Shown: piece by piece, positions 5,659-51,195 of the stretch
Position numbering within the stretch: the first letter of the stretch is position 1
Layout of the letters: every line of letters begins with the position of its first letter
The notes under the pieces: generated by a model
What the model saw: the letters and a program-made list of their open reading frames with translations, nothing else
The model's database searches: none
What the model was told of the DNA's origin: nothing
Position numbers and translations under genes: made by a program
DNA from: Escherichia phage SmurfNell
Sequence record: OR896824.1
DNA length: 64,000 nt
Reading direction: 5' to 3' (one strand)

Positions 5659-6171
5659 ATGCAAATCATCACTGTTGAAGATTATAAACTATATGGGAAT
5701 TTAAAACGTCCTGATATGGAAACTCAGGTTGAGATGATGATTAAAGCTGCCAATACGCTGATTACAAGCCTTCTAGGTATGGATGATGCAGATGCGGTAG
5801 ATCAATTAATCACCACAAAACCTAGCCGTAGGAAATATTTCCTGAGTTCTCCCTCAGCCACATCTATTACAAAGATGACTATTAACGAGAATGAAATAGA
5901 CCCGGAACAGTTTAAACTGTATCCTGATGGTGTTATTCTCCTTAAGTTTAATCCTCCTGAAGGATATATGGATGTAGAGTATACCCAAGGTGGTTTCAAT
6001 CCAATGCCTGAAGATCTTAAACTGGCAGCATGTCTGTTAGTAGATCATTGGCATAAGCAAGATTATCGTCAAGCCAAGACTATTGGTGGTGAGACAGTTA
6101 CGTTTAATAATACTAAGTCTGGTATTCCAGAGCATATACGTACAATCATTGAAGTCTACAGGAGAGTATAA
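5659..6171 (+). CDS. Head completion / head-tail adaptor protein (by position)
   Basis: 170-aa ORF right after capsid terminator; function from synteny only. Confidence 0.45.
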   Translation: MQIITVEDYKLYGNLKRPDMETQVEMMIKAANTLITSLLGMDDADAVDQLITTKPSRRKYFLSSPSATSITKMTINENEIDPEQFKLYPDGVILLKFNPPEGYMDVEYTQGGFNPMPEDLKLAACLLVDHWHKQDYRQAKTIGGETVTFNNTKSGIPEHIRTIIEVYRRV

Positions 6172-42382: not shown

Positions 42383-42611
42383 CTTCTTTAATTAATTCTC
42401 CTAATTCCTTATAAACACGTTCTAACTCAAAAGGGATACGTAAGGATACTCGTACCTTACGTTGTTTTAATAGCCATATAGATACGTTCGGAATACCAGC
42501 CAATCTGGGAGGGACCACTCGGCATAGTTTCTCCGCAGTATCGTAAACAGAAGTTTTACGTTCTTTTACGTAAAACTTCCTTGTTTCCCACTTTTTATTC
42601 TTCGCTGTCAT
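42360..42611 (-). CDS. Hypothetical small basic protein
   Basis: 83 codons from ATG at 42611; overlaps the 3' end of the upstream helicase gene. Confidence 0.35.
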   Translation of the reverse strand: MTAKNKKWETRKFYVKERKTSVYDTAEKLCRVVPPRLAGIPNVSIWLLKQRKVRVSLRIPFELERVYKELGELIKEDDNSRRG

Positions 42612-45384
42612 TTCTAGCCCCCAATTCAGCAAGAGCTTCCTCATGCATCTGACGTTCTTCATCTGTCATAAACTTAACTGGAATCGGCATACATTCGATC
42701 TTACAGTAAGTTCTGTACCAGTCCACAATCTTTTCCGTATCCAGATCTTTACCGATACCCATCATGCCAAGATACATACGAGCATATTTTGGGTTAGCGC
42801 TCTGACCTGTCTTAAGGAAGAAATCCTTCTTCTTATTCTTAAGAGCTTCGATAAACGGTTTGATTGTTACGTTTGAACACTTTTTAATATCTTCCCAGAA
42901 CATGTCGTGCATCTTATGGAAGAATGCAGCTCTATCGTTTGGTTTATCCTTGATATACTGTTCAACGTGTTCCACTGTTACATCTTTAATAGAATCCAGA
43001 TGATAATAGCGAACCAGAAGCAATTTAGCTTCATAGGCATCTGCATGACGTGGTGCGCAATATTCAGGAGTTGAGTGCAAAATAGCTTTGATTCGCTCTT
43101 CTGTATACTCTTTGCCTGCACCTTCGATAGTTCCCCAGCTTTCACTGAAAATATCAATAGTTGCACCCTGATCAAGCAGATAATAACGCAAAGTACTAGT
43201 ATAGTTTCTGGACTCCAGTTCACGACGACGTGCATACAGCTGCTGAGCTAACTCAACCCAACCCTCATCAATATTATATTGCTCGGAACCCGCAGAAAAT
43301 CCACTCGTAGATTTATCAATAAAATAATAAATGTTCTGAGCACCACGGTCGCGCCTGATTGCTTGGAAACGCATGTTTGGCGCTTGGTTTGAGGTTCTAG
43401 TGATAACAAATACGTTATCAAAATAGTTAAAGTCAACGCCACTCGTTACAGATGGACTACATAACAAACAATCAATCTGTTGATCAATTAGCTCATTAGT
43501 AGTGTAATCCAGAATACGTCGGATATCTACATCAGACGTAGAGTTTGAGTGAATTTCTTTAACTAACGCACCAGTGTTACGACGTAACGCCATCCCCTTT
43601 TCATTCAGTTCATCTGGCCCACAGTCAGATACTAGGATTGATTTCTCCCCCATCTCTAGTGAAGTCTGGAGTGCGACCCAAATACTGGATTCATCAGGGA
43701 ACTCATATGCATGAGCTTTTGCCAGCATTTTACGGTGATGATTATAGAACGCGACCGGTTTATCAAAATCAATCAAAGAACCATAGGCTTCAATCGTTTC
43801 TGCACTGATATCACCATCAGATAAGATAACCGTTTTTGCAGTAATAAGAATATCGCGAAGAACCTGAATACATTCACGACGGTTTTTAACAACCGGGGCG
43901 AATAACAGATCATTCATTACTGCGTCACATTCATCAATAAAGATCGTATCAATCTGACCCACAAAGCTCTTGAACTTATGGATAGAGTGAATAGTTGAAG
44001 ACATACGATCAATAGCACCACGTTTGAAGTTCAGCATATCAACTGACTTATCATACTGACCAGCACCGAATTTCTTCGCGTTTGAAGATACAAGTGCCCT
44101 AGTATTCGTGATTGCAATAAAGTTTCCTGGAAGAACACCTGCATCTAGCCACTTAGTTACTGCTGTGGTTTTACCTGTACCAAGACTTGCCTTAACAAAT
44201 GTTAAATGTCCTTTTGGGGGTACAATGTTAATCTTCAAGTATGGAACTTCTGGCGGTGAATCTGTGTCCAGACGCTTTAGTGGTACACCTTTTAAGTTGG
44301 GTGGAATCTCACGTTTGGAGTTATTCACAAAGGCTTTTAGAGCCTGCTTACGACCGTTATTAAAGTAATCTTGAATATTACGACTATTATCTTTAGTTGC
44401 AATATATTCAGATAAAGCTGGTTTAATCTCACGTTCTAACCACGTAAAGTCAACACCATCTTCTAACGCTCTGTGATAAAGTTTTGGGATAATACGCAGG
44501 TACACCCCATCCTCAGCTTCTTCTAGTTCGCTGATGGTTTCTTCCACTTTATCAGATGCAGCCTTCTTGCCTTTAATTTGGTCAAGTAAGGAGTAGAATT
44601 CTTCTTTAAACTCACCTCTAGTTGTTTCAAAGTCAACTAGGTTATTGGGTAGATTCACTTTCGAACCCTTAACATACACAAGACGTGGTTTATTCTCCGC
44701 TTTAAACGGATCGACTATACCATCATCAAATAAGGGATCTGCGAAATAGTGAAGCTGAACAGAAGAATAATAAGCTAAGTCAGCAATATCAAAGCCATAC
44801 TTTTGCTTACTACTGTCATTGATGGATGTAAATAAGAATTTTAATTGCCCCTGCGTTACCTTGACATTAGATTCTAGCATTAAGTGCATTCGGATACCTG
44901 GTTTTAATCCAGCCGAAGACGATGCATGAGCAATAAACCCTGCATCAAGAGGAAACATATCCTCACTAATACTATTCAACATCTTAATAATATGACGTGC
45001 CATGCCAACAAGATTAAACTTGTCATAGCCACCAGTATCTACAATACCATCCACGTCCATAGCAATAATATGACTAGGATTGGATACGTTAAAGTTTCCC
45101 CTGGTACGACGCACATTATCTTTTGGAGCTAAACATTTACCACGAATAGCTACAATATGCGGGTCTTTGGTAAGACGACGCATGATAGGTAACATTTCAG
45201 CAAGGTTTTGCGGGTCAAGTTCTTCAAGTACATCAAATTTGAAGGGCATGGAAGCTGGTTTACCTTCTGGATGCTCTTTAGAGAATCGCTTTGCAAAGGT
45301 GTAATCTTCCACTTTGATCTCTTTCCAGATGCCAGTGGCTTTATCTCTGGAAAATCCTGCGTGACCTTGTAGGATTGAGAACAC
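42595..45384 (-). CDS. Origin-binding-type helicase with N-terminal primase-like region
   Basis: Walker A ASLGTGKTT, DExD box IFIDECDAV, QAIRRDRG; N-terminal HIIAMDVDG acidic motif; start set at GTG 45384 (AGGAG 8 nt upstream), ORF track extends to 45507. Confidence 0.6.
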   Translation of the reverse strand: MFSILQGHAGFSRDKATGIWKEIKVEDYTFAKRFSKEHPEGKPASMPFKFDVLEELDPQNLAEMLPIMRRLTKDPHIVAIRGKCLAPKDNVRRTRGNFNVSNPSHIIAMDVDGIVDTGGYDKFNLVGMARHIIKMLNSISEDMFPLDAGFIAHASSSAGLKPGIRMHLMLESNVKVTQGQLKFLFTSINDSSKQKYGFDIADLAYYSSVQLHYFADPLFDDGIVDPFKAENKPRLVYVKGSKVNLPNNLVDFETTRGEFKEEFYSLLDQIKGKKAASDKVEETISELEEAEDGVYLRIIPKLYHRALEDGVDFTWLEREIKPALSEYIATKDNSRNIQDYFNNGRKQALKAFVNNSKREIPPNLKGVPLKRLDTDSPPEVPYLKINIVPPKGHLTFVKASLGTGKTTAVTKWLDAGVLPGNFIAITNTRALVSSNAKKFGAGQYDKSVDMLNFKRGAIDRMSSTIHSIHKFKSFVGQIDTIFIDECDAVMNDLLFAPVVKNRRECIQVLRDILITAKTVILSDGDISAETIEAYGSLIDFDKPVAFYNHHRKMLAKAHAYEFPDESSIWVALQTSLEMGEKSILVSDCGPDELNEKGMALRRNTGALVKEIHSNSTSDVDIRRILDYTTNELIDQQIDCLLCSPSVTSGVDFNYFDNVFVITRTSNQAPNMRFQAIRRDRGAQNIYYFIDKSTSGFSAGSEQYNIDEGWVELAQQLYARRRELESRNYTSTLRYYLLDQGATIDIFSESWGTIEGAGKEYTEERIKAILHSTPEYCAPRHADAYEAKLLLVRYYHLDSIKDVTVEHVEQYIKDKPNDRAAFFHKMHDMFWEDIKKCSNVTIKPFIEALKNKKKDFFLKTGQSANPKYARMYLGMMGIGKDLDTEKIVDWYRTYCKIECMPIPVKFMTDEERQMHEEALAELGARNDSEE

Positions 45385-45880
45385 AACAATACTCCTATGT
45401 TGGTTATTCGGATATCTTTCTTTAGGACTATTCAAAAGAATAGAACAACTATTACTACCATTTACACAAACATTAATCATCATCAAGCAGTATGAATAAG
45501 TTATCATACCTCAGTGCTGCGCTCTCTTAACTCTTATCCAGATCAGAACCTAGGTCATTGGCCGCTAAGCCGATTCTGATTGCCCTCACTATCCTATTGG
45601 TAGGTGGCTACTGGACGTGTCACCATTCGCTGCTCTTTTCGTTCGCACCCCCATATAAAGCTCTGCCTATATAACGAGCTAAATATGCACGGTTTGGATT
45701 TACCTTTCCGAATTCAGGGTACGCAGATCACTTAATTGATAATTAACTAATGCAGTATAAACACTAGTAATAGTTAAAACAACCCTTAATGGGGCAGCCT
45801 AACTGTTCCGTATTGCGGATTGTAAACAAGAAAAATTAGCAAAATCAATTTTTACTAATGTCTCTCAATTCAATATAAAT

Positions 45881-45909
45881 ATTATATCAAGATTTTGAGC
45901 ATCCTGCAA
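45881..45909 (-). promoter_or_regulatory. Sigma70-type promoter with long leader
   Basis: Minus strand TTGCAG, 17-nt spacer, TATAAT, then ATTTATATTGAATTGAGAGAC; about 500 nt untranslated before helicase start. Confidence 0.5.
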
Positions 45910-45949
45910 GTAAAATTTTTCCGAAGGTGCTATCAGTGTCCTTGAGCAC

Positions 45950-45976
45950 AGAGAAAACCGAGTCATTTTGACTCGG
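45950..45976 (-). terminator. Rho-independent terminator
   Basis: CCGAGTCA-loop-TGACTCGG hairpin; minus strand followed by TTTTCTCTGTG. Confidence 0.6.
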
Positions 45977-46000
45977 TAATCAGGATTGAGCTAATGAAAA

Positions 46001-46396
46001 TCAATCATCATTTAGGCCTGGGACATAGATTCCAATGCGATTTAATTGACCTTTAGCTTCTTCGAGAATATCTTCGGTGTACTCCCAAATATCATCTTCT
46101 ACTTGCAAAAGATAAGGGGATTCACCAGTTTCGGGGTCACGTGTAATGGCTAAGCCACGTGGATGGAATATAGAGAAGTTGAGGGCAACAATCAAGCCCA
46201 TGCTGGACAATTCATTCCAGTCAGCTTCCCAACCATCATCTTCATCTTCGTCCACAAAGACACCTACACTAGGGTCTGTTACAGAAGTAAACGGAAATGT
46301 TACACTAACCTTGTCAACCCCCAACCAACGTGCAAGGAGCCCTTCAGCACGCTCTACCAAACTAGGATCTATCTGACGCCAAAATACTTGTTCCAT
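46001..46396 (-). CDS. Hypothetical protein, paralog B of tandem pair
   Basis: 131 aa; strong SD TAAGGAGG; core MGLIVALNFSIFHPRGLAITRDPETGESPYLLQV...IGIYVPGL aligns with upstream paralog. Confidence 0.6.
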   Translation of the reverse strand: MEQVFWRQIDPSLVERAEGLLARWLGVDKVSVTFPFTSVTDPSVGVFVDEDEDDGWEADWNELSSMGLIVALNFSIFHPRGLAITRDPETGESPYLLQVEDDIWEYTEDILEEAKGQLNRIGIYVPGLNDD

Positions 46397-46405
46397 TCTG
46401 CCTCC

Positions 46406-46834
46406 TTAAGCAGTTAAACCTGGGATCATATACCCGAAACGACGAAGTTTCTGAATCCCCTCATTTACTTCTTCGGGCGAATATGACCAGCCCTCACGTT
46501 CATTTACCTGGAAAGCAGGAGCTTCACCAGTGCGATAGTTTACAATAAGACGGTGATTTGCAGGCATAAACAGCTTATGGTTCAAGGCAAAAACCAGACC
46601 CATTTCATCTAGTTCTTTCCAGTCTACAATTTCTTCTACTCTCTCACCTAAATCCACGCTAACTCCAATACATGGAGCTTCCTCTAGTGGGCCTTTAAAG
46701 GATAGGAAGATATCGTTATTCTCACACCAAATCTTAAGCAGATTGATGGTTTCATTATACATACCATTAGGGAGAGAACGCCAGAAGTTGAGGAGCATAG
46801 GGTTTACCTCTTTCATGAAAAGATTATCGAACAT
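46406..46834 (-). CDS. Hypothetical protein, paralog A of tandem pair
   Basis: 142 aa; core MGLVFALNHKLFMPANHRLIVNYRTGEAPAFQV...FGYMIPGL; SD AAGGTG. Confidence 0.6.
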   Translation of the reverse strand: MFDNLFMKEVNPMLLNFWRSLPNGMYNETINLLKIWCENNDIFLSFKGPLEEAPCIGVSVDLGERVEEIVDWKELDEMGLVFALNHKLFMPANHRLIVNYRTGEAPAFQVNEREGWSYSPEEVNEGIQKLRRFGYMIPGLTA

Positions 46835-46836
46835 AT

Positions 46837-47376
46837 TTACACCTTAAGTTTCTGAAGAGCCTTACACATTTCAAGATCTGGACTAAACTCCAGCATATAG
46901 CTGATAGCATTTAAATCTTGAAGGTTTATTCCAGTCCTGCCATTTACAATAACAGTAGGGAATTGGTACATCATAGCACCAGCATCATCTAGGACACACC
47001 AATGCTTGAGCTTATATTTTTCGACGAAACGTAAAACAGAATTACCCCGAGATAAACCACCTCCAGTAAAATCTGTTGTACCAAGGAAACGATCGATCAA
47101 ACCGAGCCCGGTCATAATCTGAACGTTCTCCATCTCATTTCGTACAGAAAACCATGAAGATACCCCAACAATCATTATTGGGGATGGCTTAAGAAAGTTC
47201 TGAAAAGCCTGGAGTAATGGCTTGTAAACCCAATCACCACCAAAGAATAGCTTCTCACTATCTGGAGCATGATGGTGAGAGATGCTCGAATTGAGCACCC
47301 CATCAATATCCAGGAAAATCACAGGAGTATTACTTATTTCCACCAGTAGCATCCCACGTCCAGACTTTAACTTCAT
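46837..47376 (-). CDS. HAD-superfamily phosphatase
   Basis: Motif I VIFLDIDGVLN (DxDG), motif IV CVLDDAG; start may be internal ATG at 47352. Confidence 0.7.
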   Translation of the reverse strand: MKLKSGRGMLLVEISNTPVIFLDIDGVLNSSISHHHAPDSEKLFFGGDWVYKPLLQAFQNFLKPSPIMIVGVSSWFSVRNEMENVQIMTGLGLIDRFLGTTDFTGGGLSRGNSVLRFVEKYKLKHWCVLDDAGAMMYQFPTVIVNGRTGINLQDLNAISYMLEFSPDLEMCKALQKLKV

Positions 47377-47515: not shown

Positions 47516-47678
47516 ATTCTCCCTCCTTAATAAGGAACTCTTTCCATTCTGCTGTATCCTCATAGATAACGCAGAAATCATCACTCTTCCATGAGAAGTC
47601 ATCAGTAGCAAATTCGAAACGGTAGCACCAACTACCATCTGGCCATACTAAAAGATCACACATGCTTTTCTGGGACAT
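47496..47678 (-). CDS. Hypothetical small acidic protein
   Basis: 60 codons from ATG 47678 with GGAGGG SD 8 nt upstream. Confidence 0.45.
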   Translation of the reverse strand: MSQKSMCDLLVWPDGSWCYRFEFATDDFSWKSDDFCVIYEDTAEWKEFLIKEGEYGEEDF

Positions 47679-48507
47679 AAATATTTCCCTCCATAAAAGC
47701 TTCAACTTGATCAATAAAGTGTTTATTACCAAAAACTTCGGCAGCTCCAGCACGCCATACAGTAACACCACGTTTCTCATACTCAAGCTGTTCGTCATAA
47801 CGAACTTGTGGGTTAACAACCATCATCTTAGTTCCACGACATACAGCAGGAAATAATTCCCAGTTGAAGTTGATAACTTGGTTACTACAACCCACCACAA
47901 TAACCATGTCATTGCTAGTAAGAGTATCAAACAGGTTGATTTGACCCATGTACCACGGAGCTGTCTCACCAAAGAACACCACGTTTGGTTTTACCCATTC
48001 GTAATCTTCAGGGGCAATCGCAGTATACCCAACATCTTCGATGATTTGATTGCGACCCTGATGATAGATCACCTCTTTCAAGTACCCGTGAGCGTGAATG
48101 ATTTCATCACGAGGGATACCAGCACGTTCCAGAAGGTCATCAACGTTAGTAGTGAAGTTCTTCACGCTACCCGCATCATAACGCTGGAACCATTCTGCAA
48201 TTCGCAGATGGGCAATGTTAGGCTCAACAGTCTGTAGTTCCTGACGACGCATGTTGTAGAACTCATGAGTCTTGAGATACAGATCGTTACCATCTTCATC
48301 AATGCCAGGGAAACGAGCGCTGAAGTAGTTAGGATCATCTTCACCACAGAAGCGACGGAAGCCAGCTTCAAAGTTAGGCAAGCTACATACTTCCTCTAGA
48401 TCGTACTCATCCCACAAAGATTTTCCACTAGCAGTATCAGTACGGAAAGCACGAACACCACTATCTACACTCAAACCTGCACCACTAACAACAATTAGTC
48501 TACGCAT
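47656..48507 (-). CDS. Sir2 (sirtuin)-family protein lacking zinc ribbon
   Basis: VSGAGLSVDSGVRAFR, TTNVDDL, IIHAHG, PNVVFFGE, VIVVGCS motifs; no CxxC pairs between HG and VVFFGE; SD AAGGAA. Confidence 0.75.
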   Translation of the reverse strand: MRRLIVVSGAGLSVDSGVRAFRTDTASGKSLWDEYDLEEVCSLPNFEAGFRRFCGEDDPNYFSARFPGIDEDGNDLYLKTHEFYNMRRQELQTVEPNIAHLRIAEWFQRYDAGSVKNFTTNVDDLLERAGIPRDEIIHAHGYLKEVIYHQGRNQIIEDVGYTAIAPEDYEWVKPNVVFFGETAPWYMGQINLFDTLTSNDMVIVVGCSNQVINFNWELFPAVCRGTKMMVVNPQVRYDEQLEYEKRGVTVWRAGAAEVFGNKHFIDQVEAFMEGNIYVPEKHV

Positions 48508-49221: not shown

Positions 49222-49255
49222 ATAAAATAAAAGCCAGGTCGACTAGCAACCTGGC
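49219..49255 (-). terminator. Rho-independent terminator after nrdD
   Basis: GCCAGGT-loop-ACCTGGC hairpin; minus strand followed by TTTTATTTTATTTG that overlaps the next -35. Confidence 0.65.
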
Positions 49256-49262
49256 TGATTCA

Positions 49263-51137
49263 TTATTTAGCGCGAATGTCCTGATGTTTCACTCGACCCA
49301 TAACCTCATGTTGTTTACCTGGGTTAAATGGACGAGCACCTGGATTTCCGAGATATCCACAAACTCGACGAGTTACCTCAAGAGTCTCAGGATCATGGTT
49401 GCCACAAATTGGGCATTTGAAACCATCCTCAGAAGCTATAGTTTCACCCAAGAACCCACATTCCCCACAAGAGTCTACTGGAGTATTAATACCAAAGTAA
49501 TGAACTTTACTTGCGGCATAGTTAATAACCCATTCCAGTGCATCTGGGAATCGTTTCATATCCGGCAATTCCACATAGGAAATGCATCCACCAGAAGCAA
49601 TTGGAGTAAAGTTAGACTCATAATCGAACTTCACGTTTGGAGCAACCTTACGTTCTACATCAAGGTGATGGGAATTAGTGTAATATCCTTTAGCCAGAAT
49701 ATCTTCATGCTCTGGAAAATACTCACGGTCTAGGCGACAGAAGCGATCACATAGAGATTCAGATGGTGTAGCATATAGACTATACCCTAATTGAGTCTCT
49801 TCCTTCTTCTGATCAGCACGATCACGCATGTATTGTAGCACACGTTGAACGAACTTGACACAAGACTCAGACATTGTATCTACATCTTTACCAAACATGA
49901 ACTGCAACATTTCGTGGCAGCCTATATATCCTAGAGATACAGAAGCACGCTTGTAGAAATGATCAAACACATATTCATCTGGCCCCAGACGTAATCCAAA
50001 GGCTCCTGACATATAGAGGATGGGTGCAGCTTTAGCTTGGATGTATTTTAAGCGATCAACCCTCCACTCCAATGCTTTTAACGCGGTATCCACACGCAGC
50101 TCAAGTAGATCGAAGAATAGATCAATATTTCCTTCCGCTTCGATAGCGATTCGAGGAAGGTTTACGGAAACAACACCTAAGTTATTACGGCCAGAAGTTT
50201 CACCATCTTCCGCAGCAGCTAGGAATGATCGACAGCCCATAGAGACTTTGTAGTCTCCCGTAACTTCTACAACCTTATCATAACTGATGTAGTCAGGATA
50301 CATACGTTCAGCAGTACATTTCATAGCTAACTTCTTGATATCATAGTTAACATCACCAGGTTTCATATTTACGCCATCACGCAAAACAAATACCAGTTTA
50401 GGGAAGATAGCTGTACGTTTATTGATACCCAAACCATCCATACGCACTTCTAAGATTGCTTTCTGTACAAGACGTGCTTCCCAGGAAGTTCCTAGACCAA
50501 AACCAAAGGTAATAAATGGACTCTGACCATTAGAGTTGAACATCGTATTGATTTCATACTCTAGACCTTGACAGGCATCGTAAACTTCTTTCTCAGTCAT
50601 TTCCGTAGCCATTACAGATGCTTTGGCTTCATCCTTAGTCCAACGCTTTGCAAACGCATGATTCTTATCATAAGACTTACGAACATAAGGAGCCAGTACT
50701 TCATCTAATCGGTCTACAGAAGTACCACCATATTGATGGGAGCTAACCTGAGTAATAATCTGAGCTGTAATAGCAGCCGCAGTAGTAATGGAGTTTGGCG
50801 TACTGATTTCAGCATTACCAACCTTCATACCGTTTTTCAACATATCTTCCAAAGCAACCAGGCAACAGTTAGTCATACCTAACACAGCGTAATCAGCATC
50901 ATGGAAGTGAATATCACCAATCATGTGAGCATTTCGAATCTGGATTGGCATTTCTTCCAGAATCAGATATTTACTCAATTCCCCTGCAAGCATGTCCCTT
51001 TGTGTAGGGAAACGTTCTGAGGGCTTATTGGCATTATTAAACAGCAGCTCTTCATCTGCTGACCCTTCGATAATCTCTTTGCAGTTTCTAATTAACGCCT
51101 GCATTTCTTTATACTTTAGTTCTTCATTGCGATTCAT
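49263..51137 (-). CDS. nrdD: Anaerobic ribonucleoside-triphosphate reductase (class III)
   Basis: C-terminal glycyl-radical motif TRRVCGYLG and Cys cluster CGECGF...CPICGNHD. Confidence 0.85.
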   Translation of the reverse strand: MNRNEELKYKEMQALIRNCKEIIEGSADEELLFNNANKPSERFPTQRDMLAGELSKYLILEEMPIQIRNAHMIGDIHFHDADYAVLGMTNCCLVALEDMLKNGMKVGNAEISTPNSITTAAAITAQIITQVSSHQYGGTSVDRLDEVLAPYVRKSYDKNHAFAKRWTKDEAKASVMATEMTEKEVYDACQGLEYEINTMFNSNGQSPFITFGFGLGTSWEARLVQKAILEVRMDGLGINKRTAIFPKLVFVLRDGVNMKPGDVNYDIKKLAMKCTAERMYPDYISYDKVVEVTGDYKVSMGCRSFLAAAEDGETSGRNNLGVVSVNLPRIAIEAEGNIDLFFDLLELRVDTALKALEWRVDRLKYIQAKAAPILYMSGAFGLRLGPDEYVFDHFYKRASVSLGYIGCHEMLQFMFGKDVDTMSESCVKFVQRVLQYMRDRADQKKEETQLGYSLYATPSESLCDRFCRLDREYFPEHEDILAKGYYTNSHHLDVERKVAPNVKFDYESNFTPIASGGCISYVELPDMKRFPDALEWVINYAASKVHYFGINTPVDSCGECGFLGETIASEDGFKCPICGNHDPETLEVTRRVCGYLGNPGARPFNPGKQHEVMGRVKHQDIRAK

Positions 51138-51166: not shown

Positions 51167-51195
51167 ATTATAACTCATTCGAGGGCGGATGTCAA
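51167..51195 (-). promoter_or_regulatory. Consensus sigma70 promoter for nrdD
   Basis: Minus strand TTGACA, 17-nt spacer, TATAAT, then AGGAG SD and ATG. Confidence 0.7.

What the first reader, a model, noticed from the sequence alone, without database searches (positions are those of the whole stretch)
46001..46834. Tandem paralogous genes of unknown function at the operon end
The 142-aa and 131-aa products align over their C-terminal two-thirds (W/VDWxEL...MGLxxALN...F.P...L.....TGE.P...V......W.Y..E...E....L.R.G..xPGL) but diverge at the N-terminus. Tandem duplication with divergence in a phage accessory operon is a common signature of host-interaction or specificity factors.
Basis: seen in the sequence. 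Interest (0 to 1): 0.5.

Follow-up and report, generated by a model that had tools for sequence, protein, structure and literature searches.

The report
Paired T5 early genes, DUF7415 family
Two neighbouring small acidic genes of a T5-like phage are real, ancient paralogues of an uncharacterised phage-only family (DUF7415) that keeps turning up beside or fused to DNA- and nucleotide-handling enzymes, so they look like helpers of phage DNA/nucleotide metabolism, not host-range factors.

Summary
On the minus strand, 46406..46834 (142 aa, "A") and 46001..46396 (131 aa, "B") are paralogues: 31% identity over 124 ungapped residues, E 1e-20, z = 27.7 against shuffles. The N-termini also align (z = 8.1).

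The window is a T5-like phage (99.8% to Escherichia phage SuperGirl), and the genes are orthologues of T5.106 and T5.107. Both belong to Pfam DUF7415 and phrog_2502, which have no known function. Each protein holds two DUF7415 modules.

The pair is old, fixed at two copies, in conserved order, under purifying selection, and nearly core in Markadamsvirinae. B keeps the family's canonical motif; A has lost it.

The family is small, acidic and phage- or prophage-borne. Relatives are fused to MazG-like NTP pyrophosphatases, thymidylate kinase, a DnaQ-like exonuclease and ASCH domains. Others sit inside ribonucleotide reductase operons or beside P2 gpA and DNA methylases.

My best reading, which is inferred, is a co-expressed acidic protein-binding pair serving phage DNA/nucleotide metabolism. 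An anti-host inhibitor role is not excluded. The host-specificity reading is not supported. The genes are catalogued but uncharacterised; interest is modest.

The parts
46406..46834 (-). Gene A, 142 aa, pI 4.8; orthologue of T5.106; DUF7415 x2; the 'degenerate' paralogue
   Evidence: ORF found. Pfam DUF7415 at 124.6 bits (cut-off 27) with two stretches; phrog_2502 E 1e-59. 72% identical to T5.106. The AF2 model has pLDDT 86.5 and pTM 0.82; residues 1-12 are disordered. The ATG lies 2 nt after the HAD gene's stop, with AAGGTG upstream (sequence). The N-terminus MF[DN]N is conserved in homologues.
46001..46396 (-). Gene B, 131 aa, pI 4.05 (net charge about -20); orthologue of T5.107; DUF7415 x2; keeps the canonical family motif
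   Evidence: ORF found. Pfam DUF7415 at 98.2 bits; phrog_2502 E 2e-58. 69% identical to T5.107. Charge. A BFVD model of a 131-aa DUF7415 protein of a T5-like phage (31% identical to A, as B is) superposes on the A model with TM 0.86/0.92.
46646..46792 (-). A, N-terminal DUF7415 module (residues 15-63)
   Evidence: The Pfam HMM matches this half alone at 72.3 bits. Predicted strand-helix-hairpin.
46499..46630 (-). A, second DUF7415 module (residues 69-112); the canonical His, Ser and G-L-A are replaced (FMP, GEAP, HRL)
   Evidence: The Pfam HMM matches this half alone at 56.5 bits. Comparison with the family consensus.
46244..46390 (-). B, N-terminal DUF7415 module (residues 3-51)
   Evidence: The Pfam HMM matches this half alone at 44.6 bits. 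Profile-profile alignment of N modules to the single-domain profile is in register, P = 0.0025, which is suggestive only.
46100..46222 (-). B, second DUF7415 module (residues 59-99): DWNELSSMGLIVALNFSIFHPRGLAITRDPETGESP, the canonical core
   Evidence: Pfam 57.8 bits. hhalign against the single-domain profile gives E 4e-23. The AF2 model of residues 55-131 has pLDDT 95.3.
46401..46405 (-). GGAGG ribosome-binding site for B, directly after A's TAA stop (TAAGGAGGCAGAATG); 9-nt gap between the genes
   Evidence: Read from the sequence. In the Klebsiella T5-like phage the two genes overlap by 4 nt. Both arrangements suggest coupled expression.
45957..45977 (-). Terminator-like hairpin ending the transcription unit
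   Evidence: 9-bp stem with 5 G-C pairs, then a T-run. T5 annotates a terminator after T5.107.
46837..47376 (-). Upstream gene in the same unit: HAD-family phosphatase-like protein (T5.105 orthologue)
   Evidence: Pfam HAD_SAK_2 E 8e-18. 90% identical to T5.105.
47656..48507 (-). Upstream gene in the same unit: Sir2-like protein (T5.102 orthologue)
   Evidence: Pfam SIR2 E 8e-22; phrog_2162 E 2e-107.
49232..49256 (-). Terminator-like hairpin after nrdD (49263..51137); probable upstream boundary of the unit that ends with A and B
   Evidence: 10-bp stem with 6 G-C pairs, then a T-run. T5 annotates a terminator and a promoter at the same place.

Best explanation
SHOWN.
- The two genes are orthologues of T5.106 and T5.107. 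They are ancient tandem paralogues of the phage-restricted DUF7415 family.
- They close an early transcription unit: (nrdD terminator) - small ORFs - Sir2-like - HAD - A - B - terminator.
- Each protein is built from two DUF7415 modules (strand/short helix - long helix - beta-hairpin) plus a C-terminal helix.
- Of the four modules in the pair, only B's second module keeps the family's near-invariant motif (N, H-P, G-L-A, R, T-G-x-S, D). A is a degenerate copy.
- Both proteins are acidic and under purifying selection.

INFERRED.
- A and B are made together, because the RBS abuts A's stop codon here and the genes overlap by 4 nt in a relative.
- They act as one small acidic hetero-oligomer, equivalent to the dimer or tetramer that single-module relatives would form.
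- They work by binding proteins, not nucleic acid.
- The DUF7415 module is a docking or regulatory unit of phage DNA/nucleotide metabolism. It would tie nucleotide-pool and DNA-processing enzymes (ribonucleotide reductase, NTP pyrophosphatase, dTMP kinase, exonuclease) to a common partner, possibly the replication/dNTP-supply machinery or a conserved host protein.
- In T5-like phages the free-standing pair would do this job at the boundary between the nucleotide-metabolism block and the replication block.
For: Identity and paralogy.

Two modules per protein: the Pfam HMM scores each half separately (72/56 bits in A, 45/58 bits in B). An in-register profile alignment gives P = 0.0025. The secondary structure repeats.

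Ancient, ordered, fixed duplication: A is 35-39% identical to Klebsiella gene 1 and B is 36-37% identical to gene 2, against 26-31% for the cross pairs. Two copies are seen in all T5-like rows. Counts of 522 against 541 records make it near-core.

Purifying selection: dN/dS 0.08 and 0.20.

Canonical versus degenerate copy.

Acidity of the family: median core charge -4.3; 86% of members have pI < 6.

Fusions in relatives:
- PF04447 dATP/dGTP pyrophosphohydrolase and thymidylate kinase.
- 173-185-aa proteins whose N-terminal part looks MazG-like by eye; database names include 'MazG-like family protein'.
- A 299-aa protein with an N-terminal region that looks like a DnaQ-type 3'-5' exonuclease by eye (L084).
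- ASCH/DUF3850-like fusions read by eye (P0082, P0188), and DUF3850 as a neighbour.

Neighbourhoods:
- Between nrdD and nrdG in two T4-like genera.
- Between nrdA and nrdB (L065) and upstream of RNR genes (L045).
- Beside nucleoside deoxyribosyltransferase and DHFR in a 203-kb phage.
- Two genes after the NudE nudix hydrolase in RB43 and Matisse.
- Beside P2-type gpA and Dam/Dcm methylases in prophages: GPA in 10 and D12 methylase in 8 of 115 neighbours taken from 32 dereplicated loci.

Co-expression: sequence read; 4-nt gene overlap.
Against: - No experiment or characterised homologue exists. No paper mentions DUF7415 or T5.106/107.
- The neighbourhood signal is partly generic. Small unknown ORFs are common in phage early regions, which also hold the replication and nucleotide genes. 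No formal background rate was computed.
- Some contexts are uninformative.
- The hetero-oligomer idea is untested, because no multimer prediction was possible.
- Near-invariant polar residues (N, H, R, S, D) could mark a ligand or catalytic site instead of a protein interface.
- A and B evolve faster than neighbouring metabolic genes, as antagonists of host proteins often do.
- Phages carrying the domain have unrelated replisomes (T4-like, T5-like, P2-like), so a common phage-encoded partner is unlikely.
Confidence: 0.4

Rival explanations
1. Host-takeover or anti-defence inhibitor. The acidic pair binds and blocks a host protein early in infection. Candidate targets are a nucleotide-depleting or NAD-depleting defence enzyme, a restriction or nuclease system, or RNA polymerase. 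Functional analogues from general knowledge are T7 gp1.2 (dGTPase inhibitor), Ocr and other small acidic early proteins.
For: - Small, strongly acidic, phage-only and early-expressed.
- No enzymatic domain.
- Evolves faster than neighbours, at 69-72% identity against 90-98%.
- Shares a unit with a Sir2-like and a HAD protein.
- In prophages it sits next to orphan DNA methylases, which are typical anti-restriction genes.
- Carriers named in the genome scan are mostly Gammaproteobacteria (19 of 21 loci, 2 Bacteroidota), which fits a conserved host target.
- An unidentified 15-kDa T5 early protein co-purifies with host RNAP (PMC7472727). This is only a coincidence of size.
Against: - Nearly core and fixed in copy number in Markadamsvirinae, whereas known anti-defence genes are usually patchy.
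- Fusion to housekeeping-type enzymes (Tmk, MazG-like, exonuclease) is hard to explain for a pure inhibitor.
- No hit in PADLOC or in solved anti-defence structures.
Confidence: 0.3
2. Ligand-binding or catalytic domain. The near-invariant Asn, His-Pro, Arg, Thr-Gly-x-Ser and Asp of the canonical module form a small-molecule (nucleotide) binding or hydrolytic site. B is the active subunit and A is a pseudo-subunit.
For: - Unusually strong conservation of polar residues for a module of about 55 residues: invariant N and S; H, R and D at 90% or more.
- All of these are retained in B and lost in A, and in the A-type copy of the Klebsiella phage.
- Association with nucleotide enzymes.
Against: - The domain is very small.
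- The second Gly of the apparent GxSxG is not conserved.
Confidence: 0.15
3. One reading: a recently diversifying tandem duplicate that sets host range or specificity.
For: Tandem paralogues with a diverged N-terminus; moderately fast evolution.
Against: - The duplication predates the split of the Escherichia/Salmonella and Klebsiella T5-like lineages, with the order conserved.
- Copy number is constant.
- The pair is present regardless of host species.
- dN/dS is well below 1.
- The genes are early and cytoplasmic in context, not among the tail or receptor-binding genes.
Confidence: 0.05
4. The database labels are right: a virion 'tail tube protein' or an 'exonuclease'.
For: Names attached to some homologues.
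Against: - No exonuclease or tail-tube Pfam or PHROG match.
- No structural match to tail tube proteins above noise.
- Located in the early region.
- The 'exonuclease' name may come from fusion proteins that carry what looks, by eye, like a separate DnaQ-type domain (L084).
Confidence: 0.02

Closest known systems
Phage T5 genes T5.106 and T5.107 (hypothetical proteins, NC_005859)
   Same: Orthologues, 72% and 69% identical. Same order, same position after the Sir2-like gene (T5.102) and the HAD gene (T5.105) and before the origin-binding protein gene, with a terminator after the second gene.
   Different: Nothing functional is known for the T5 genes either, and no paper in the searchable library names them.
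Pfam DUF7415 (PF24187) / PHROG 2502, 3954, 33705, 1812
   Same: Both window proteins match far above threshold, and B carries the canonical motif.
   Different: Most family members have a single module (65-100 aa) or are fused to an enzyme. The T5-like proteins are two-module proteins present as a pair, with three of the four modules degenerate.
Single-module DUF7415 genes of T4-like phages (for example RB43 ORF184c, and the PKO111 and PM2 genes between nrdD and nrdG)
   Same: Same core domain, 40-46% identical to B residues 63-121. Early, nucleotide-metabolism neighbourhood.
   Different: One module and one copy, with no N-terminal degenerate module.
T7 gp1.2 and similar small acidic early phage proteins (functional analogy only, from general knowledge)
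   Same: Small, acidic, early, linked to the nucleotide pool, and acting by binding a protein.
   Different: No sequence or structural relationship was detected, and no target is known for DUF7415.
T4 dNTP-synthetase complex (functional analogy only, from general knowledge)
   Same: The idea that phage nucleotide enzymes are held together and coupled to replication by protein-protein contacts.
   Different: No T4 component is homologous to DUF7415 (not tested), and the complex has not been shown for T5.

Membership tests
Pfam DUF7415 (PF24187) | Whole-protein score above the gathering cut-off of 27 bits | tested here: met
   A scores 124.6 bits and B 98.2 bits. Each half scores above the cut-off on its own: 72.3, 56.5, 44.6 and 57.8 bits.
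Pfam DUF7415 (PF24187) | Canonical core motif W-N-x-L-S-x-x-G-L-x4-I/L-N-x3-hydrophobic-x-H-P-x-G-L-A-x2-R-x-P-x-T-G-x-S | tested here: met
   Met by B's second module (DWNELSSMGLIVALNFSIFHPRGLAITRDPETGESP). A's second module keeps W, G-L and L-N but has lost H, G-L-A and S. Both N-terminal modules keep only W and the hydrophobic pattern.
PHROG phrog_2502 (unknown function) | Full-length match to the 134-position profile | tested here: met
   A: E 1.1e-59 over profile positions 2-134. B: E 2.3e-58 over positions 4-134.
DnaQ-like 3'-5' exonuclease (label 'exonuclease' on some homologues) | Presence of an exonuclease domain | tested here: not met
   No exonuclease family matches at E <= 1 in Pfam or E <= 0.1 in PHROGs. 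An N-terminal region that looks exonuclease-like (by eye; not scanned against Pfam) is seen only in a 299-aa fusion relative, L084.
Phage tail tube protein (label on some homologues) | Tail-tube fold or family match, and a position in the late structural module | tested here: not met
KH or winged-helix nucleic-acid-binding domains (topology resemblance: helix-helix-hairpin) | Significant structural similarity and a basic binding surface | tested here: not met
MazG-like / PF04447 NTP pyrophosphohydrolases | All-alpha NTP-PPase domain | tested here: not met
   Absent from A and B. It is present only as a separate fused domain in relatives.
Known anti-phage-defence or anti-defence proteins | Sequence or fold match to a catalogued member | tested here: not met
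   PADLOC gave no meaningful hit. Searches of solved structures by sequence, profile and fold gave none. Function as an inhibitor cannot be tested with these tools.

The most novel reading that the evidence does not exclude
DUF7415 is a previously unrecognised fold that works as a portable docking module. It recruits nucleotide-pool and DNA-processing enzymes (RNR, MazG-like pyrophosphatase, dTMP kinase, proofreading-type exonuclease) to one conserved partner in infected Gammaproteobacteria. The T5 A/B pair would be a free-standing heteromeric version that organises, or blocks, that hub. Equally novel, it could be a new family of inhibitors of a host nucleotide-directed defence.
Probability: 0.2. 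Interest if true: 0.6.

Novelty: already known. Interest (0 to 1): 0.3.

Why it matters
As sequences, the genes are already catalogued: they are T5.106/T5.107 orthologues, Pfam DUF7415 and PHROG 2502. The finding is therefore not a discovery of a new element.

What is new here is a set of leads for a family with no assigned function:
- a two-module architecture, with one canonical and three degenerate modules per gene pair;
- an ancient, fixed duplication;
- a confident predicted structure with no solved counterpart;
- a repeated link to ribonucleotide reductase operons, NTP pyrophosphatases, dTMP kinase and replication genes in unrelated phage groups.

If the docking or regulator idea is right, it would give a handle on how T5-like and other phages couple dNTP supply to replication. 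If the inhibitor idea is right, it would add a near-core counter-defence gene pair to a model phage. Either way, the pair is a tractable deletion and pull-down target in T5.

Tried and rejected
- Solved-structure sequence searches with A, B and two family profiles found nothing real. The LRR and repebody hits to A residues 2-49 are low-complexity Leu/Asn matches.
- Foldseek against BFVD returned only DUF7415 proteins.
- The AFDB library was unavailable.
- The internal repeat was tested with my own profiles. N against M modules of the two-module family was not significant (E 0.05). N module against the deeper single-domain profile was suggestive and in register (P 0.0025). The claim rests mainly on the Pfam HMM scoring both halves.
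- A third 'W-x-Y + helix' repeat at the C-terminus was considered and is not supported.
- The long multi-stretch hits of the deep search (P0053, P0067 and proteins above 1000 aa) were rejected as repeat artefacts after reading their sequences.
- HAD-DUF7415 linkage was rejected as a general rule. The HAD gene is missing from Klebsiella T5-like phages, which keep the pair.
- A Ser-His-Asp triad or GxSxG nucleophile elbow was considered but is not supported, for two reasons. The second Gly is not conserved, and from the hairpin topology Ser and His probably lie at opposite ends.
- A link to the Dam/SeqA clade of hosts was rejected, because Pseudomonas and two Bacteroidota genomes carry the domain.
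- Literature searches for DUF7415, T5.105-107 and T5 Sir2/anti-defence found nothing relevant.
- A scan of the 490-bp gap downstream of B found no notable repeats or composition shift.

Full report
**What is there.** The window is a T5-like phage. The 2.2 kb around the finding is 99.8% identical to Escherichia phage SuperGirl and 98-99% identical to many Salmonella Epseptimavirus genomes. The finding's coordinates hold two complete minus-strand ORFs: A = 46406..46834 (142 aa) and B = 46001..46396 (131 aa).

The genes are tightly packed. A's ATG lies 2 nt after the stop of the upstream HAD gene. B's ATG lies 9 nt after A's stop, and a GGAGG follows that stop directly. A terminator-like hairpin at 45977..45957 follows B. 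After it, about 490 bp of non-coding DNA precede the origin-binding protein gene (42595..45507).

Upstream on the same strand lie several genes:
- a HAD-family protein (46837..47376);
- small ORFs;
- a Sir2-like protein (47656..48507);
- three more small ORFs;
- nrdD (49263..51137), which has its own consensus promoter and a strong terminator.

In phage T5 the same layout is annotated as T5.099 (nrdD), terminator plus promoter, T5.100-T5.107, terminator. A and B are the orthologues of T5.106 (72% identity) and T5.107 (69%).

**Is the paralogy real?** Yes.
- BLASTP gives 31% identity over 124 ungapped residues, E 1e-20.
- The Smith-Waterman score is 27.7 standard deviations above 2000 shuffles.

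**Family.** Both proteins match Pfam DUF7415 (124.6 and 98.2 bits; cut-off 27) and PHROG 2502 (E about 1e-59). Both families are of unknown function.

The 53-position Pfam model matches twice in each protein. Each half scores above threshold on its own: 72 and 56 bits in A, 45 and 58 bits in B. My own profile comparison of the N-terminal module with a 55-sequence profile of single-module relatives is in register but only suggestive (P = 0.0025). An earlier, shallower comparison was not significant. The predicted secondary structure repeats: strand, helix, hairpin, twice, followed by a C-terminal helix. I therefore treat each protein as two DUF7415 modules, which gives the gene pair four modules.

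**How big and how old is the family?** An exhaustive HMM search of 1.84 billion cluster representatives found only 161 proteins at E <= 1e-3. A few of these are repeat artefacts. The conserved core is the second module. Its consensus is DWNxLSxxGLIxRINxEILHPLGLAxxRDPxTGxSxGxLVxDDGxWEY. G, L, N, G and S are invariant, and I, H, P, L, A, R, G and D are at 90% or more.

B keeps this motif. A has lost the His, the G-L-A and the Ser.

The same split is seen in a Klebsiella T5-like phage, whose first gene is A-type and degenerate and whose second is B-type and canonical. Each is closer to its counterpart in the window (35-39% and 36-37%) than to the other paralogue (26-31%). The duplication therefore predates the divergence of these T5-like lineages, and gene order has been kept.

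Several results argue against a dynamic, host-specific gene:
- Every Markadamsvirinae row listed shows two copies, and T5 itself and a Klebsiella T5-like phage each carry two genes.
- A full-length B-type copy is in 522 phage records, against 541 records with an origin-binding protein at 60% identity or more. This makes it nearly core in Markadamsvirinae.
- Vibrio, whose phages account for 357 of the origin-binding-protein matches, is not among the ten commonest genera in the DUF7415 tblastn search, so most of them appear to lack a detectable homologue.
- dN/dS against T5 is 0.08 for A (dS saturated) and 0.20 for B.

The pair does evolve faster than its neighbours. NrdD is 98% identical to T5, the origin-binding protein 94% and HAD 90%. 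Sir2, at 62%, is similar to the pair.

**Structure.** AlphaFold2 models are confident:
- A: pLDDT 86.5, pTM 0.82, with only residues 1-12 disordered.
- B residues 55-131 with a 55-sequence alignment: pLDDT 95.3.

The family is also acidic. The median core charge is -4.3 and 86% of members have pI < 6. B has pI 4.05 and a net charge of about -20. Nucleic-acid binding is therefore unlikely.

**What the relatives say.** All database names are 'hypothetical', 'DUF7415' or, for fusions, 'MazG-like'. Stray labels such as 'exonuclease' and 'tail tube protein' have no support.

Domain fusions in relatives:
- PF04447 dATP/dGTP pyrophosphohydrolase + DUF7415;
- DUF7415 + thymidylate kinase;
- many 173-185-aa prophage proteins whose N-terminal part looks MazG-like by eye + DUF7415; database names include 'MazG-like family protein';
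- a 299-aa protein whose N-terminal region looks like a DnaQ-type exonuclease by eye, + DUF7415 (L084);
- ASCH/DUF3850-like domains, read by eye (P0082, P0188);
- a 157-aa type whose N-terminal part is unidentified and was not tested.

Neighbourhoods:
- In T4-like Jiaodavirus PKO111 and Bragavirus PM2, the single-module gene lies between nrdD and nrdG.
- In one IMG/VR contig it lies between nrdA and nrdB, and in another just upstream of RNR genes.
- In a 203-kb phage it precedes a nucleoside deoxyribosyltransferase and DHFR.
- In RB43 and Matisse it lies two genes after the NudE nudix hydrolase.
- In the many P2-like prophages it lies beside the gpA replication initiator and Dam/Dcm methylases. 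Among 115 neighbours from 32 dereplicated loci, there were 10 GPA, 8 D12 methylase, 3 C5 methylase, 3 DUF3850 and 2 RNR large subunit.
- P2 itself has DUF5405 (Orf83) and DUF3850 (Orf91) flanking gene A.
- Other contexts were uninformative.
- Hosts of prophage copies are mostly Gammaproteobacteria, with two Bacteroidota.

**Interpretation.**

Shown:
- A and B are ancient, fixed, co-transcribed paralogues of a small, acidic, phage-borne family.
- The predicted structure is confident and has no solved counterpart.
- One of the four modules is canonical.

Inferred from fusions and neighbourhoods: the module works in phage DNA/nucleotide metabolism, probably by protein binding. It may dock or regulate enzymes such as RNR, NTP pyrophosphatases and kinases, and A and B may act together as a heteromer. 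I give this about 0.4.

Rivals:
- A host-takeover or anti-defence inhibitor, about 0.3. The proteins are small, acidic and early, evolve fairly fast, and share a unit with Sir2-like and HAD genes. An old report describes an unidentified 15-kDa T5 early protein on host RNAP (PMC7472727), but that is only a size coincidence.
- A ligand-binding or catalytic site formed by the conserved N/H/R/S/D residues, about 0.15.

**Caveats.**
- No background rate was computed for the neighbourhood signal, and early regions are rich in both small unknown ORFs and metabolism genes.
- Gene calls in the IMG/VR loci came from a crude ORF picker.
- No multimer prediction could be run.

**Verdict.** The element is already catalogued (T5.106/T5.107, DUF7415) but uncharacterised. 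The specificity-factor interpretation is not supported. The most useful outcome is a concrete, testable link between this orphan domain and phage nucleotide/DNA metabolism.

Noticed in passing
window 46837..47376 (-): This gene matches Pfam HAD_SAK_2 (E 8e-18). PHROG-derived RefSeq annotations of the orthologues, including T5.105, call it 'Sir2 (NAD-dependent deacetylase)' through phrog_18062. The label looks wrong, because the real Sir2-like gene is 47656..48507.
   Followed up: partly
window 49232..49256 (-) and 51167..51195 (-): nrdD (49263..51137) is bracketed by a perfect sigma-70 consensus promoter (TTGACA-17-TATAAT) and a strong 10-bp-stem terminator. It looks like a separate transcription unit from the Sir2-HAD-DUF7415 genes downstream.
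   Followed up: partly
L006 4977..5195 (PKO111), L007 4941..5207 (PM2), L065 1872..2285: In unrelated phages, single-module DUF7415 genes sit inside ribonucleotide reductase operons: between nrdD and nrdG, or between nrdA and nrdB.
   Followed up: partly
L084, 299-aa focal protein; homologues P0003, P0021, P0022, P0027: Some T5-like DUF7415 proteins are labelled 'exonuclease', 'Phage exonuclease (ACLAME 70)' or 'tail tube protein', with no supporting domain. The exonuclease name may come from rare fusions that carry what looks, by eye, like a DnaQ-type exonuclease domain ahead of DUF7415, such as L084.
   Followed up: partly
L090 (phage P2) 3270..3545 and 5817..6146: P2 Orf83 (DUF5405) and Orf91 (DUF3850/ASCH) flank replication gene A. 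In other P2-like prophages, DUF7415 genes, alone or fused to other domains, lie next to gpA. DUF3850 occurs both as a neighbour of DUF7415 and, by eye, fused to it in other proteins (P0082, P0188), which suggests domain shuffling among small replication-operon ORFs.
   Followed up: no
window 45508..46000: A non-coding gap of about 490 bp (GC down to 0.34) lies between B's terminator and the origin-binding protein gene. Only short weak repeats and one promoter-like site were found. T5 annotates a promoter here. No role as an origin was examined.
   Followed up: partly
window 47656..48507 (-): The Sir2-like protein is only 62% identical to its T5 orthologue, while the flanking NrdD, HAD and origin-binding proteins are 90-98% identical. 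This early block therefore mixes fast- and slow-evolving genes.
   Followed up: no
literature (PMC7472727, introduction): A 15-kDa T5 early protein that co-purifies with host RNA polymerase is not assigned to a gene in the passage read. T5.107 (14.8 kDa) and T5.106 (16.5 kDa) are early proteins of that size, but so are other T5 ORFs. This is only a lead.
   Followed up: no
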